A DNA stretch of 64,000 nucleotides from Promethearchaeia archaeon. Its GTDB lineage: Archaea > Asgardarchaeota > Lokiarchaeia > Sigyniarchaeales > SOKP01. Position 1 is the stretch's first letter, and each line of letters begins with the position of its first letter. Below, piece by piece: positions 24,680 through 63,830 of the stretch. Both the position numbers and the translations under genes were made by a program. Under the pieces are notes generated by a model. The model made no database searches. It was not told the DNA's origin and saw only the letters and a list, made by a program, of their open reading frames with translations. The stretch is from contig JAHQWK010000002.1 in the NCBI GenBank assembly GCA_029856145.1, forward strand, positions 128,001 through 192,000, given 5' to 3'.

Positions 24680-25112
24680 TTATATCCTAAAGGCTATTAA
24701 ATCGATAATATCAATTAATTTTATTTTTTCTTGAATCTCTGATCCTATTTCTTTATATGCATCACTTAAATTTCCTATGCAGAAAGGACAACTAGTGGTT
24801 AATATCTCAGCTCCCGATTCTACTGCTTCTCTAATTCTCTCTTTTGAAATCTCTATCGCTAAATCTGCAAATTGGCTTAGCACCACTAAATTCTCCAGCA
24901 CCTCCACCTCGAGGAATAACAGGGATATTTTCTTGGTTTGCTACTTTGAGAATCTCGGAGATTTCTTGTGCATCCTTGGGACGAATAACTATCTCGGGAA
25001 CACCTTGTAGAAGAGGGTCAACAGTTCTCGAATAAGCATGACGAACATAAATATCATTGGAAATAAATTTATCTGAAACAATTTTTTCTAATTTGTTATA
25101 GATATCTGACAT
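24680..25112 (-). pseudogene. Chimeric remnant: N-terminal ~80 aa of a GlcD-like FAD-linked oxidase joined out of frame to the C-terminal ~64 aa of a CCG-domain (GlcF/HdrD-like) Fe-S protein
   Basis: PEIVIRPK...IPVIPRGGG in one frame; GAEILTTSCPFC..NL in another; junction near 24870-24875. Confidence 0.8.
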
Positions 25113-32795: not shown

Positions 32796-33026
32796 AATTA
32801 GAATCCTGAAATTCAATATGAGAATTCTCTTTAATTTATTGATTTTTACATCTATTCTAAAATATTATTTCAACCTTTAGAAATGAAACATAATTTCTAT
32901 AAGAAAAAATCATCGTTTGTATGAAAAGGATATAAGAAAATTTAAAATTCAGTACTTAATTTTCCAAAATAATAATTTTAAATATAAAAATCAAAAATTT
33001 GAAGATTAATTAAGAGGTTGGAAATT

Positions 33027-34540
33027 ATGAGTTATAAACTTCCTACAGAGAAGGACCTTGATGCTATGATCGGCATTGTGGGTAAAGAATACGCTACAAA
33101 TAACAAAGCGATTACTGCGTCTTACCTGGCGAAATCAGTAATGGGTTTAGAAATCTTTTATTCAAAATCGGATAATGACTAAAGAGCCAAATCCCTGATA
33201 TCGTCATTCGACCTAAATTCGTTGAAGAGATTCGCAAAATCTTAATATATTGTTCCGCGGAGAAAATTGCAGTAAGTCCGGTCTCGGGGGGATTGTCTGG
33301 TGGGTTTTCGTGCCCAACAATCAAACCTGGCGGAGTGCTCCTTGATTTAGGAAGAATGAATAGAATTATTGAAATTGACGAGGAAAATCGATATTGTATC
33401 ATAGAACCAGGGGTTACAAACGGTGAACTTTGGGCTTATATGCACAAAAACCACCCAGATTGGGCCCCTCCTATTCCTGATGGTGCTCCTCCTGCAGCAA
33501 CCGTTATGGGAGACGCAATAGATCGTGGATTTTCATTGTATACATCTTCAGTAGGTCCACAAGGAGATAATTTTATGTGTGGAGAAATTGTTTTTCCAAA
33601 TGGAGATGTGGTACGAACTGGTTCATGGGCGCTTCCTTTTGCAAAACCTTTCTATAAGTATGGACTAGGGCCTGATATGTGGTCATTTCTAATGGGCAGT
33701 CAAGGTGCACTTGGAGTAGTTACTAAAGCGGCTGTTAAAATATATCCTCACCCCAAATATAAAACAGTTGTAGTGTGGGGGATGTCAAATCCTTATGATA
33801 TGCAAGATTTAACTCTTGAAATTGCAAAACAAGAATTCGGAATTTCTCATAACACAGTAATGGTTCAAGGAGGGAATTATCCTTTAGTAATGGCTCGTTG
33901 GCCTAAAGATAAAGTTCCCCATGATTATAAGTTCTTTGAAGGTTTAGGAATTCCAGAATGGTGGATGAATTGGGAATGTTGGGCTCAAACTCAAGAAGAG
34001 TTGGACTATGTAGTTAATAGAATTAATAGTATGGCAGAAGATTTTAAAAAAAGAGCAAAAGATCCTGATGCTATAAAACCTCAAGAACTTCATCCTAAGC
34101 AAATCGCAAGCAGAATGAAAAAACCAAACAAAATCGCAATTCCTTACAGTTTTTGGGAAGCTGGCTTTTTATTTATCACATGGTATACTCCATGGCCGGA
34201 ATGTGGACACTTTGCTGATATGTATTGTAAAGCTATGGAAAAGTATGGATTTCCACCAGTTATGTGGATAGCAAGTATTGAACGGTGTAGACAAGCAATT
34301 TGTATGCCAATCGTCTGTTTTGATTCCACTAAGCAATCAGATTTAGAAAAGGTTCAAGAGATGAATAGAGAAACAACTGAATATGCTCTTAAGCAAGGTT
34401 GGTTAAATTACAGACCAGATCCATACATTCATATCCAAGCTTATTATCAAGCGGGGATGTATTGGAAATATTTAAGAGCCTTTAAGAAACTCGTAGATCC
34501 TAATATGATAATGCATCCAGGAAGACTAGCTCTTCCATAA
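33027..34540 (+). CDS. FAD-linked oxidase (GlcD/D-lactate dehydrogenase/VAO family), split by a 32-nt BHB intron: join(33027..33152,33185..34540), 493 aa
   Basis: GAGG SD then ATG 33027; exon 1 MSYKLP...SVMGLE; exon 2 SQIPDIVIRP...LDLGRMNRI...EPGVT...GSQGALGVVT...KKLVDPNMIMHPG. Confidence 0.85.
33153..33184 (+). other. Candidate archaeal-type (bulge-helix-bulge) mRNA intron, 32 nt
   Basis: Central helix UUAG(33147-50)/CUAA(33179-82), bulges AA|A and AG|A, flanking exon and intron helices; removal restores the frame. Confidence 0.85.
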
Positions 34541-34560
34541 ATAAAGGAGGTTAATAAAAA

Positions 34561-35982
34561 ATGGCTAAAACAGGAATGGAAAGATTAGAAGAATTGAAAA
34601 AAGATATTTATAAATGTATTCACTGTAAGGCATGCAGATTCGCTTATTCTGGCGAACCTGACAGAGAGGGAATAGGAGAATATGCAGGAAAGCAAAGTAC
34701 TGTACTTTACGAAGGAATGGTAGACGCTTGTCCGGCAGGTATTGAGTATGGATGGGAAGCTTTCTGGAATGCAGGTAAAATGTGGATTGCCCGATCAATT
34801 TTAAGCGGGGACTTAGAATTTAGTGATGAAGTTAGGGATGTCATTCTACCATGCATTACGTGTGGTCAATGTTCAGCTCAATGTGATAATAAAATTCGTA
34901 CTGTTGATATTATAGAGTCTTTAAGAGCAGCATGTATAGAATCTGGAGTGCCAATGATAGAAAAACATGAATTAGTAGACAAACTAGTGAAAGAGCGAAA
35001 TAACCCATACGGTGGTGCTGCTGCTGATAGATTTAAATGGGCTAAAGATGCCGGCCTGGAGAAATTTATCAATAATAAAGATGCGAAAATTGCATATTAT
35101 GTAGGATGTACTGCAAGTTACCGTCAAATAGAGGTTGCTGTTGCGACTGCCAAATTATTCGAGCTATTAGGCATGAATTTCACGCTAGTTGCAGACGAAG
35201 TATGTTGTGGAAGCCCATTTTTCAGGATAGGAGCAGTTGATACCGCACAGGGATTAATGAGGAAAAATCTTGAAGCTTTCAAGAATATGGAAATGGTATA
35301 TTTCAGCTGTGCTGGGTGTTATAGAACGATTACCATTGATTACCCAAAATGGATGGCTGAAGACGAAGAACTTCCTTTTAAAACACAGCATGCATTTGAA
35401 CTAGTAACAAGGTTAGTCCAACAAGAGAAAATCAAATTCAAACCAAATAAGGAATTAAAAGGAAAGGTGGTTACCTATCATGATCCCTGTCATACTGGTA
35501 GACATTTTGCTGTTGATATGGAACAAGATATTATCGCAAAATCTAAGAACCTTTTGATGGATAGCCGTAAAATCAAGAAAGCAATTGAAGAGTGGTATGA
35601 AGTTCCACGTGTCATTCTAAGAAAACTTGAAGAGGACGTAGGAATTAAATTTAATGAGATGTACCGTATAAAGCTTGATAGTATGTGTTGTGGTGCTGGT
35701 GGAGGAGTAAGAGCAGGATATCCAGAATTTTCTCTCAGAACCGCCAGTTTGCGATGTGACGAGGCAAATGCTGTTGGAGCAGACATTTTAACAACCGAAT
35801 GTCCCTTCTGTTGGAGAAATCTCTACGATGCCAATGAAATGTACAATCACGGTATGGTTGTTATGGGTGTTCTTCAAATGATTACAGAATATAATCTTTT
35901 GGATATTTTAGAGAAGCCCAAAGAAGAAGATTTCTTAACACCATCTATTAGAGAGGCAATGGAAGAAGAACCTAAAAAATGA
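34561..35982 (+). CDS. Fe-S oxidoreductase with ferredoxin-like motifs and two CCG domains (HdrD/GlpC/GlcF-like)
   Basis: CIHCKAC...CP, CITCGQC..QC, VCCG, YHDPCH, MCCGAGGG, CPFC; GGAGG SD; in an operon with the FAD oxidase. Confidence 0.9.
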   Translation: MAKTGMERLEELKKDIYKCIHCKACRFAYSGEPDREGIGEYAGKQSTVLYEGMVDACPAGIEYGWEAFWNAGKMWIARSILSGDLEFSDEVRDVILPCITCGQCSAQCDNKIRTVDIIESLRAACIESGVPMIEKHELVDKLVKERNNPYGGAAADRFKWAKDAGLEKFINNKDAKIAYYVGCTASYRQIEVAVATAKLFELLGMNFTLVADEVCCGSPFFRIGAVDTAQGLMRKNLEAFKNMEMVYFSCAGCYRTITIDYPKWMAEDEELPFKTQHAFELVTRLVQQEKIKFKPNKELKGKVVTYHDPCHTGRHFAVDMEQDIIAKSKNLLMDSRKIKKAIEEWYEVPRVILRKLEEDVGIKFNEMYRIKLDSMCCGAGGGVRAGYPEFSLRTASLRCDEANAVGADILTTECPFCWRNLYDANEMYNHGMVVMGVLQMITEYNLLDILEKPKEEDFLTPSIREAMEEEPKK

Positions 35983-55207: not shown

Positions 55208-55312
55208 GGGAGGGTGGTCTAGATTGGTATGATACTCGGCTGGGGGCCGAGTGGCCGGGGAAAGACCAAACGTTTCGGTGGTCTTCCGGAAGTTCAAATC
55301 CCCCCTCTCCCA
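55208..55312 (+). tRNA. tRNA-Pro(GGG) with a 31-nt BHB-type intron in the T-stem (55261-55291, position 52/53)
   Basis: Acceptor GGGAGGG/CTCTCCC, anticodon arm CTCGG-CTGGGGG-CCGAG, central helix CCGG/CCGG, bulges GG|A and AA|G. Confidence 0.9.
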
Positions 55313-63645: not shown

Positions 63646-63725
63646 AGTTTTAACTATAAAGAACAATTAGATAATTTTTATAGAGAATCATTAATTTTTA
63701 AGAATTACAAATAGAAAATTATAAT

Positions 63726-63830
63726 AGTCCGGTAGTCTAGTATGGATAGGGCGCTGGCTTGCGGAGCCAGATATCGAGGGTTCAAACCTCTTAGCATATA
63801 GCAAGGAGGGAATATATCCCCCCCGGGCTA
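63726..63830 (+). tRNA. tRNA-Arg(GCG) with a 30-nt BHB-type intron in the T-loop (63786-63815, position 58/59)
   Basis: Acceptor AGTCCGG/CCGGGCT, anticodon arm CTGGC-TTGCGGA-GCCAG, central helix GTTC/GAAT, intron stem CCTCTT/AGGAGG. Confidence 0.88.

What the first reader, a model, noticed from the sequence alone, without database searches (positions are those of the whole stretch)
33027..34540. Bulge-helix-bulge intron in a protein-coding metabolic gene of an Asgard archaeon
Seen in sequence: an SD-preceded ORF starts at 33027 (MSYKLPTEKDL...SVMGLE-IFYSKSDND*, stop at 33182), and the rest of an FAD-linked oxidase continues in another frame (SQIPDIVIRPK...). The 32-nt segment 33153-33184 (ATCTTTTATTCAAAATCGGATAATGACTAAAG) folds into a strict BHB. 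The exon helix is GGU(33144-46)/GCC(33186-88) and the central 4-bp helix is UUAG(33147-50)/CUAA(33179-82). The 3-nt bulges are AAA(33151-53) and AGA(33183-85). The intron helix is UC/GA plus UUAUUC(33158-63)/GGAUAA(33170-75). Cutting after the second nucleotide of each bulge, which is the established rule for the archaeal splicing endonuclease EndA, removes exactly 32 nt and joins GAA|AGC in frame, giving ...MGLE-SQIPDIVIRP..., 493 aa. The spliced junction aligns to within one residue with the uninterrupted paralog remnant in this window (YSRTVDPLLQGVPEIVIRPK, 24870-25112). Its length and 5' A match the four tRNA introns here (30-31 nt). Established: BHB introns are typical of archaeal tRNA/rRNA, and the classic mRNA example is crenarchaeal cbf5. 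Inference: this lineage splices mRNA with the tRNA machinery (EndA plus an RtcB-type ligase), and such genes are being mis-annotated as frameshifted or N-truncated.
Basis: partly seen in the sequence, partly recalled or inferred. Interest (0 to 1): 0.95.

Follow-up and report, generated by a model that had tools for sequence, protein, structure and literature searches.

The report
tRNA-type intron in Asgard enzyme gene
A 32-base insert that seems to break an FAD-dependent oxidoreductase gene of a Loki-type Asgard archaeon is very probably a true intron of the kind normally cut out of tRNAs; in the papers I could search, such splicing of a protein-coding message was confirmed in archaea only for the gene cbf5.

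Summary
An ATG at 33027 opens 42 codons, 32 nt (33153-33184) follow with an in-frame TAA and a frame change, and the rest of a GlcD-like FAD oxidase runs to 34540. Removing exactly these 32 nt gives ...SVMGLE|SQIPDIV..., the uninterrupted sequence of ~495-aa orthologs. The insert forms a strict bulge-helix-bulge (BHB) motif.

- The same site carries 29-, 31-, 32- or 36-nt inserts in at least 10 species of the genus and in other MAGs and metagenome contigs.
- All 14 distinct sequences keep every core pair, with compensatory changes.
- Both exons are under strong purifying selection (dN/dS about 0.05).
- The four lengths give all three phase relations, so no single frameshift or readthrough can serve them all.
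- The genome encodes a two-subunit EndA and RtcB.
- One contig from a library labelled metatranscriptomic skips exactly 33153-33184. The library may be DNA, so splicing is supported but not shown.

The intron is patchy in the genus. This genome appears to have acquired it with about 280 nt of flanking exon by recombination. The single-copy aIF2-gamma gene of the same genome is interrupted in the same way.

This scan has noted similar mRNA introns on other DNA. The literature I could search confirms only cbf5.

The parts
33014..33017 (+). Shine-Dalgarno-like GAGG, 9 nt before the start codon
   Evidence: Read directly from the sequence.
33027..33152 (+). Exon 1: 42 codons, MSYKLPTEKDL...SVMGLE
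   Evidence: Translation. It matches residues 1-42 of the uninterrupted ~495-aa orthologs. dN/dS is 0.04 among intron-bearing species.
33144..33146 (+). Outer (exon) helix h, 5' strand GGU
   Evidence: Pairs with 33186-88. 100% of cells are paired in 14 distinct sequences.
33147..33150 (+). Central 4-bp helix H, 5' strand UUAG (exon 1)
   Evidence: Pairs with 33179-82. Compensatory changes are UA>CG and AU>GU>GC.
33151..33153 (+). 5' bulge AA|A; predicted cut after 33152
   Evidence: BHB geometry. The contig joint runs 33152->33185.
33153..33184 (+). 32-nt BHB intron. It holds the inner helix h' (33154-55/33177-78), a hairpin (33158-63/33170-75) and the in-frame TAA at 33180-82.
   Evidence: It is absent from intron-less orthologs at exactly this point. 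Variants of 29, 31, 32 and 36 nt sit at the same site. One contig skips it.
33179..33182 (+). Central helix H, 3' strand CUAA (intron)
33183..33185 (+). 3' bulge AG|A; predicted cut after 33184
33186..33188 (+). Outer helix h, 3' strand GCC (exon 2; part of Ser AGC and Gln CAA codons)
   Evidence: All intron-bearing alleles use AGC or AGU for this Ser. All but one intron-less allele listed use TCN.
33185..34540 (+). Exon 2: 451 codons plus stop, SQIPDIVIRPK...; FAD_binding_4, GlcD-like
   Evidence: The first possible internal start is TTG 33293, 36 codons inside the conserved domain. These 36 codons have dN/dS 0.045.
33048..33358 (+). Approximate recombination tract (CDS nt 22-300) in which this genome resembles the intron-bearing allele of a more distant species (G061)
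   Evidence: 51 against 5 informative sites inside the tract, 81 against 170 outside it, Fisher p = 1e-16. In the tree of the 5' region, own plus G061 are sisters with support 95.
34561..35982 (+). Downstream partner gene: CCG-domain / 4Fe-4S protein (GlcF/HdrD/TfrB-like), 20 nt after the oxidase stop
   Evidence: The same neighbour stands in the related locus L036.

Best explanation
The 32 nt at 33153-33184 are an archaeal bulge-helix-bulge intron in the pre-mRNA of a GlcD-like FAD-binding oxidoreductase.

Proposed mechanism:
- The last codons of exon 1 (GGU UUA GAA) pair with the 3' end of the intron (CUAA) and the first bases of exon 2 (A GCC). This forms a canonical hBHBh' motif that mimics an intron-bearing anticodon arm.
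- The two-subunit (alpha-beta)2-type splicing endonuclease EndA cuts after the second base of each 3-nt bulge.
- RtcB joins the exons (GAA|AGC) and probably circularises the intron.
- The spliced message encodes a 493-aa enzyme. The unspliced message would give only a 51-aa peptide.

The intron is one of a population of 28-36-nt micro-introns in this genus. They are present or absent at given sites among species, and at this site the intron reached this genome by homologous recombination together with about 280 nt of flanking exon.

Shown: the anatomy, conservation, covariation, selection on both exons, presence of the enzymes, and the mosaic. Supported but not proven: removal at the RNA level. 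Inferred: that EndA and RtcB are the acting enzymes, and that the intron is circularised.
For: 1. Exact junction. Removing 33153-33184 gives SVMGLE|SQIPDIV, which is identical to the uninterrupted orthologs P0003-P0013 and to about 28 intron-less genomes of the genus.
2. Conservation. The same site is interrupted in G000, G004, G013, G017, G024, G026, G061, G063, G064 and G076. It is also interrupted in a more distant MAG (L036, 36 nt) and in metagenome contigs with 29- and 31-nt variants. All score 9/9 for a strict BHB, and every spliced CDS is intact.
3. Covariation. On 14 distinct sequences the three core helices are 100% paired, and 8 pairs show changes on both sides. Examples are H pair 1 UA>CG and H pair 3 AU>GU>GC, where a synonymous exon change is matched by an intron change. 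No shuffle of 500 reached the observed values, and partners slid by 1-3 columns pair in only 18-50% of cells.
4. Selection. dN/dS is 0.04 for exon 1, 0.045 for the first 36 codons of exon 2 (which lie upstream of any start codon) and 0.07 for the rest, with dS 0.5-0.8, among eight intron-bearing species.
5. Phases. Lengths of 29, 31, 32 and 36 nt give all three phase relations, so only excision explains all variants.
6. Machinery. There are two ~200-aa EndA proteins above the TIGR00324 cut-off. They match the N- and C-terminal halves of the fused alpha'2 model. There is one RtcB. An (alpha-beta)2 EndA with the L1 loop is reported for Asgard archaea (PMC5829648).
7. tRNA introns of this genome are 21-30 nt with the same geometry, for example tRNA-Ser GGC UUCG AG|U...CAAG AA|A GCC.
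8. Run X2 (library source METATRANSCRIPTOMIC) holds a 248-nt contig lying on 33057-33152 and then 33185-33336, with 1 mismatch. It skips exactly the 32 nt, and no contig in that run holds the intron.
9. The single-copy essential aIF2-gamma gene of this genome carries a 30-nt insert in its P-loop, so the cell must remove such inserts.
Against: - The only transcript-level evidence is one low-depth contig (depth 3.55) from a library that the tool flags as 'RNA? (probably DNA)'. If it is DNA, the contig shows an intron-less allele of the same species, not splicing.
- The true RNA-seq runs laid (X5, X6) cover only the 3' end of the gene.
- The BHB is not the minimum-free-energy fold, and the region folds no better than shuffles (z = -0.79).
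- Strict BHB motifs are common by chance in this 30% GC genome.
- Much of the double-sided covariation comes from a few divergent sequences (L036, L057, L115).
- No enzyme assay, circular intron or peptide evidence exists.
Confidence: 0.85

Rival explanations
1. The insert is removed from the RNA, but not by the EndA/RtcB pathway acting on the BHB. Another nuclease-ligase pair or another structure would do it, and the BHB would be incidental.
For: No enzymology is available. The MFE fold differs from the BHB.
Against: The BHB core is kept by compensatory changes in every variant, and the cut rule for EndA gives the exact junction. In the aIF2-gamma gene of G071 only the BHB register restores GHVDHGKT. 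No group I or II features can fit in 29-36 nt.
Confidence: 0.06
2. The insert stays in the mRNA and the ribosome deals with it, either by programmed bypassing (as in T4 gene 60 or the mitochondrial 'byps' of Magnusiomyces; recalled from my own knowledge) or by frameshifting.
For: The inserts are short, carry hairpins and hold an in-frame stop, which resembles bypass elements superficially.
Against: There is no matching take-off and landing codon: GAA before the insert, AAG, AAU or GUU before exon 2. What co-varies is complementarity, not direct repetition. Lengths of 29, 31, 32 and 36 nt give three different phases. One contig lacks the 32 nt. The same kind of insert sits in tRNA genes, where translation plays no part.
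Confidence: 0.03
3. The gene is broken in this genome (a pseudogene or a recent insertion mutation), or the insert is an assembly artefact. The intron-less contig would then be simply the functional DNA allele of a sister strain.
For: The run with the intron-less contig may be DNA. Intron-less alleles are common in the genus. A truncated paralog remnant elsewhere in the window shows that gene decay does occur here.
Against: The insert is present in independent assemblies of at least 10 species and in metagenome contigs. All interrupted genes keep intact exons, with dN/dS about 0.05 at dS 0.5-0.8. An intron-less strain carrying the same co-converted flanks and the AGC codon would need a precise deletion at the BHB cut sites.
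Confidence: 0.04

Closest known systems
BHB intron in the cbf5 (aCBF5 pseudouridine synthase) pre-mRNA of Crenarchaeota (Watanabe 2002; Yoshinari 2006; Yokobori 2009, PMC2738675)
   Same: Both are short introns inside an archaeal protein-coding sequence, bounded by a bulge-helix-bulge motif and cut between the second and third bulge residues. Both occur in hosts with a hetero-oligomeric splicing endonuclease, show lineage-specific presence and absence, and are mis-annotated as frameshifted or truncated genes.
   Different: The gene (a metabolic FAD oxidoreductase), the phylum (Lokiarchaeia / Asgard) and the insertion site all differ, and the two introns are not homologous. The motif here is a strict canonical hBHBh', whereas most cbf5 motifs are relaxed. 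Here the intron varies among species of one genus, occurs in four length variants at one site, shows recombination with flanking exon sequence, and is accompanied by similar inserts in other genes of the same genome.
Archaeal tRNA BHB introns, including non-canonical positions (Marck and Grosjean 2003; high intron load in Asgard tRNAs, PMC11291895)
   Same: The geometry, the size range (21-30 nt in this genome's tRNAs) and the presumed enzymes are the same. The exon context GGY-NNNN-AA|A...|A-GCC imitates an anticodon stem.
   Different: The host RNA is an mRNA, so the exon helices must be built from codons (the Ser codon is AGC or AGU in all intron-bearing alleles). Splicing also has to compete with translation.
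Unconventional cytoplasmic splicing of HAC1/XBP1/bZIP60 mRNA in eukaryotes (Ire1 cut; ligation by RtcB in animals, Trl1 in yeast; from my own knowledge, XBP1-RtcB also named in PMC8718801)
   Same: A short intron (26 nt in XBP1) is removed from an mRNA by an endonuclease that makes 2',3'-cyclic phosphate ends and by a tRNA ligase. Removal shifts the reading frame.
   Different: The eukaryotic endonuclease is Ire1, which recognises two stem-loops rather than a BHB, and the event is a regulated stress switch. No regulation is shown here.
EndA-dependent BHB in the 5' UTR of a Haloferax volcanii mRNA (PMC7714728, listed; its UTR content rests on my recollection and an unverified scan note)
   Same: It is a BHB processed in an mRNA outside cbf5.
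   Different: It lies in an untranslated region, so it does not interrupt a coding sequence.

Membership tests
Archaeal bulge-helix-bulge (hBHBh') intron | Two 3-nt bulges on opposite strands separated by a 4-bp helix | tested here: met
   UUAG/CUAA lies between AAA and AGA. This is kept in all 14 distinct orthologous sequences.
Archaeal bulge-helix-bulge (hBHBh') intron | Flanking helices h (exon-exon) and h' (intron-intron) of at least 2-3 bp | tested here: met
   h is GGU/GCC and h' is UC/GA plus a 6-bp hairpin. 100% of h, H and h' cells are paired.
Archaeal bulge-helix-bulge (hBHBh') intron | Cutting after the second bulge nucleotide on each side gives the functional product | tested here: met
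   The junction GAA|AGC gives MGLE|SQIP, identical to intron-less orthologs. The rule is stated in PMC2738675.
Archaeal bulge-helix-bulge (hBHBh') intron | Pairs maintained by compensatory substitutions | tested here: met
   8 pairs show changes on both sides, no shuffle of 500 reached the observed values, and slid controls pair in 18-50% of cells.
Archaeal bulge-helix-bulge (hBHBh') intron | The host encodes the splicing endonuclease EndA and an RtcB-type ligase | tested here: met
   Two EndA subunits (112 and 84 bits against a cut-off of 59.6) and one RtcB (568 bits) are present.
Archaeal bulge-helix-bulge (hBHBh') intron | Present in DNA and absent from the mature RNA | tested here: inconclusive
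   One contig of a library labelled metatranscriptomic skips exactly 33153-33184, but the library may be DNA.
Archaeal bulge-helix-bulge (hBHBh') intron | Cleavage by EndA in vitro and a circular intron product | not testable with these tools
   This needs recombinant enzyme or circRNA-seq.
cbf5 pre-mRNA intron family | Located in cbf5 at the catalytic Asp codon | tested here: not met
   The host gene is a PF01565 FAD-binding oxidoreductase. This intron works like the cbf5 intron but is not a member of that family.
Programmed translational bypass element | Matching take-off and landing codons flanking the bypassed segment | tested here: not met
   GAA stands before the insert and AAG, AAU or GUU before exon 2. 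The covariation seen is complementary, not a direct repeat.
Programmed ribosomal frameshift or stop-codon readthrough | One fixed frame relation and a conserved slippery or recoding site | tested here: not met
   Variants of 29, 31, 32 and 36 nt give phases 2, 1, 2 and 0, and a read-through product would carry 10-12 extra residues that no ortholog has.

The most novel reading that the evidence does not exclude
In this Lokiarchaeial genus, 28-36-nt BHB micro-introns form a dynamic, genome-wide population. They sit in tRNAs and in many protein-coding genes, including essential single-copy ones (aIF2-gamma P-loop, probably rps3, mvk, uppS, NifU). They are gained and lost between species, and they spread by homologous recombination with co-conversion of flanking exons. 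Routine splicing of mRNA by the tRNA machinery would then be part of normal gene expression in close archaeal relatives of eukaryotes, and many 'frameshifted' or N-truncated Asgard genes in databases would be intron-bearing genes.
Probability: 0.55. Interest if true: 0.9.

Novelty: new member of a known kind. Interest (0 to 1): 0.78.

Why it matters
In the papers I could search, only one archaeal coding sequence (cbf5, Crenarchaeota) is confirmed to be spliced by the tRNA machinery. Three points follow.

1. This case extends mRNA BHB splicing to Asgard archaea and to an ordinary metabolic gene. It comes with unusually clear comparative evidence: four length variants at one site, compensatory changes that link a synonymous codon choice to the intron, and strong selection on both exons.
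2. Such introns move. The intron differs in presence among species of one genus, and here it arrived with a ~280-nt recombination tract. That makes intron gain and loss in archaea testable.
3. Gene callers truncate these genes. P0015 is annotated from an internal Met, and an essential gene such as aIF2-gamma looks broken. This affects metabolic reconstructions and completeness estimates for Asgard MAGs.

It also raises the question of how splicing competes with coupled translation in a cell without a nucleus.

Tried and rejected
- Single-sequence thermodynamics. The MFE fold of 33135-33200 is not the BHB and is no better than shuffles (z = -0.79), so it is uninformative.
- tRNA finders. ARAGORN without the intron option finds no tRNA in the window, and Rfam finds one weak hit. 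With -i, ARAGORN finds one in the window and 27 in the genome.
- Genome-wide census of mRNA introns. I tried a strict or relaxed BHB plus open-frame criteria, and then added a codon-usage score. Real and decoy (parallel-pairing) scans gave equal counts: 1274 against 1322, and 75 against 81 at the strictest setting. Structure alone cannot count these introns, so I give no number.
- Read laying. X1 has no contig over the junction. The RNA-seq runs X5 and X6 cover only 34295-34600. The upstream intergenic region is uncovered in all runs. Nothing there says whether X2 is RNA or DNA.
- Database proteins near-identical to the spliced products of intron-bearing species. There were none among the 120 representatives returned.
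- AU test for the mosaic. Forcing the own sequence into the intron clade on CDS nt 301-end costs 27.8 lnL, but p-AU is 0.10. The site-count test is what carries the recombination claim.
- The second apparent break in G021 (near residue 265) is a run of N, not an insert.
- The inserts in G027 (residue 14) and G034 (residue ~205) could not be drawn as strict BHBs by hand.
- Most hits of the degenerate DNA pattern in bacteria are chance matches.
Full report
**1. The observation**

- GAGG lies at 33014-33017 and the ATG at 33027.
- There are 42 codons (MSYKLPTEKDL...SVMGLE) up to GAA at 33150-33152.
- If read on, the frame stops at TAA 33180-33182.
- A second frame runs from AGC at 33185 to the stop at 34538-34540.
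- Pfam's FAD_binding_4 domain starts at residue 4 of this second part, at profile position 1. NCBIfam places it nearest GlcD, far below the equivalog cut-off, so I call it a GlcD-like FAD-binding oxidoreductase.
- The next gene (34561-35982) is a CCG-domain / 4Fe-4S protein, the usual partner of such enzymes.

My own scanner for a strict hBHBh' motif requires a 3-bp outer helix, a 4-bp central helix, two 3-nt bulges and at least 2 bp of inner helix, with G-U pairs allowed. It finds (33152, L = 32) and no other candidate between 33100 and 33200. The orientation is that of pre-tRNA, with each bulge 3' of its central-helix strand. The cut after the second bulge residue is the rule stated for cbf5 (PMC2738675).

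**2. Is it more than chance?**

On its own, not by much.
- Strict motifs occur at 3e-4 of all position-length pairs in this 30% GC DNA.
- The local fold is not unusual (z = -0.79).

The weight comes from comparison. A search with exon 2 found about 495-aa orthologs that read ...SKSVMGLESQIPDIVVRPK... without interruption. The BHB cut therefore restores the conserved protein with no residue gained or lost.

**3. The same site in other genomes**

Among 54 species-level genomes of the genus, 45 have the gene.
- Ten are interrupted at this codon boundary by 32 nt: G000, G004, G013, G017, G024, G026, G061, G063, G064 and G076.
- The others whose sequence I read across the site are continuous.
- A more distant MAG (L036, which encodes the N-truncated database protein P0015) has a 36-nt insert of unrelated sequence at the same place.
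- A degenerate pattern scan of metagenome and genome contigs added 29-nt (L074, L089) and 31-nt (L057, L115) variants.
- Record titles name these MAGs Promethearchaeota, for example Loki_b32, which supports 'Asgard'.

Every variant scores 9/9 on the strict motif, and every spliced CDS is intact at 493-496 aa.

**4. Covariation**

I tested 14 distinct sequences (alignment A2).
- All cells of the outer, central and inner helices are paired.
- Eight pairs show changes on both sides.
- No shuffle of 500 reached the observed values.
- Sliding the 3' partners by 1-3 columns drops pairing to 18-50%.

The telling cases link codon choice to the intron.
- Leu UUA>UUG in exon 1 is matched by U>C in the intron (AU>GC). 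L115 holds the G-U intermediate.
- UUA>CUA is matched by A>G.
- The Ser codon after the junction is AGC (once AGU) in all intron-bearing alleles, as the outer helix needs. It is TCN in all but one of the intron-less alleles listed.

**5. The interrupted gene is functional**

Among eight species that share the intron, dN/dS values are as follows:

| Region | dN/dS |
|---|---|
| Exon 1 | 0.04 |
| First 36 codons of exon 2 | 0.045 |
| Rest of the gene | 0.07 |

dS is 0.5-0.8. The first 36 codons of exon 2 lie upstream of any possible start codon, since the first candidate is TTG at 33293. Both parts are therefore translated as one protein.

The variants are 29, 31, 32 and 36 nt long, giving phases 2, 1, 2 and 0 (the last with an in-frame stop). 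No single frameshift, hop or readthrough can serve them all, whereas excision at the BHB serves all. There are no matching take-off and landing codons for bypassing.

**6. Machinery**

- The genome has two ~200-aa EndA proteins, both above the TIGR00324 cut-off. One matches the N-terminal half and the other the C-terminal (catalytic) half of the fused alpha'2 model. This is the (alpha-beta)2 arrangement reported for Asgard and TACK archaea and linked to broad substrate range and to cbf5 splicing (PMC5829648; PMC2738675).
- One RtcB is present.
- tRNA introns that ARAGORN can parse in this genome are 21-30 nt with the same geometry.
- Only 11 tRNAs are found without intron search and 27 with it, in a genome that is 97% complete. 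This fits a heavy load of non-canonical tRNA introns.

**7. Transcript evidence**

I laid four runs on the stretch. Run X2 (marine sediment, library source METATRANSCRIPTOMIC, strategy WGS) holds a 248-nt contig. It lies on 33057-33152 with no mismatch and then on 33185-33336 with one mismatch, skipping exactly the predicted 32 nt. No contig in X2 carries the intron.

The tool flags this library as 'RNA? (probably DNA)', and nothing in the output settles its nature. If it is DNA, it shows an intron-less allele of the same species. That allele would have to retain the AGC codon and the flanks typical of intron-bearing alleles, which would need a precise deletion at the BHB cut sites. I consider spliced RNA the more economical reading, and I count this as support, not proof.

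**8. Evolution**

- On a tree of CDS nt 301-end, eight intron-bearing species fall in one well-supported clade that also holds two intron-less species. G063, the own genome and L036 lie elsewhere.
- Well-supported branches force at least three changes of intron state, and parsimony needs six.
- The own gene is a mosaic. In CDS nt 22-300, 51 informative sites agree with the intron-bearing G061 and 5 with the intron-less G006. In the rest of the gene the counts are 81 and 170 (Fisher p = 1e-16).
- In the tree of the 5' region, the own sequence and G061 are sisters with support 95.
- The AU test on the remainder is not significant (p = 0.10).

I read this as acquisition of the intron by homologous recombination with co-conversion of about 280 nt of exon.

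**9. Other interrupted genes**

Notes of this scan pointed to other interrupted genes in this genome, and I checked them in the sequence.
- 30-31-nt inserts split the GEH motif of mevalonate kinase, DGNRRW of UppS, GHVDHG|KT of aIF2-gamma, rps3 and a NifU-like gene. The NifU insert is a strict 9/9 BHB.
- aIF2-gamma is single-copy here. It is interrupted at the same point in 6 of the 52 genus genomes that have a match and continuous in the others.
- In G071 only the BHB register restores GHVDHGKT. An essential gene in this state means that the cell must remove such inserts.
- Other species carry inserts at other positions of the FAD oxidase gene: a 29-nt insert at residues 233/234 in G021 and G027, plus inserts near residue 14 (G027) and near residue 205 (G034).
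- My structure-based genome scans could not count such introns, because decoys scored as often.

**10. Known or new**

Six full-text searches found no report of BHB introns in Asgard protein-coding genes. Reviews and recent structural papers still cite only cbf5. Yokobori et al. state that no gene other than cbf5 had been confirmed.

Other agents of this scan have reported similar mRNA introns in DPANN and Asgard genomes. Those are unchecked notes, not independent evidence. They do mean that this is not the first sighting within the scan.

I class it as a new member of a known kind. Its interest is high because of the lineage, the quality of the comparative evidence and the signs of mobility.

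Noticed in passing
G000 contig C5, about 34198-34228 (locus L123/L124); not in the window: The single-copy aIF2-gamma gene is split inside its P-loop (GHVDHG|KTT) by a 30-nt hairpin insert with a relaxed BHB (7/9). Six of the 52 genus genomes with a match are interrupted there and the rest are continuous. In G071 only the BHB register restores the motif.
   Followed up: yes
G000 contigs C3 (+, ~203064; -, ~49022 on the reverse strand), C8 (-, ~11010) and C10 (+, 33333-33362): 30-31-nt inserts interrupt mevalonate kinase (GE|H), UppS (DG|NRRW), rps3 and a NifU-like gene (strict 9/9 BHB). I confirmed the inserts in the sequence only and did not compare orthologs.
   Followed up: partly
Loci L045 (G021), L047 (G027) and L046 (G034): orthologs of the same FAD oxidase gene: Other species of the genus lack the site-42 intron but carry short inserts elsewhere in the gene. 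A 29-nt insert sits between residues 233/234 in G021 and G027 (central helix CCGA/GCGG with one mismatch, correct cut register). A 31-nt insert sits near residue 14 in G027 and a 28-nt insert near residue 205 in G034. The last two could not be drawn as a strict BHB.
   Followed up: partly
window 33048-33358: This tract of the own gene is 94% identical to the intron-bearing allele of G061, while the rest of the gene is 78% identical to it and closer to intron-less species. That is a recombination mosaic centred on the intron.
   Followed up: yes
window 55208-55312 and about 63725-63830: Two tRNA genes (Pro-GGG, and one with a GCG anticodon loop) each carry a ~30-nt insert outside the anticodon loop, in the T-arm or 3' region. 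Standard tRNA finders miss or misparse them. Genome-wide, only 11 tRNAs are found without intron search.
   Followed up: partly
window 24680-25112, minus strand: A decayed second copy of the operon. A 93-aa N-terminal piece of a GlcD-like protein (FAD_binding_4 positions 1-35 only) overlaps the C-terminal end of a CCG-domain protein, as if an internal deletion had joined the two genes.
   Followed up: partly
proteins P0040 and P0046-P0048, from contigs of up to 120 kb: Several database orthologs start at MC[GA]E[IV]VFPNGD (about residue 170 of the full protein) although their contigs are long. Another interruption may lie upstream in those genomes.
   Followed up: no
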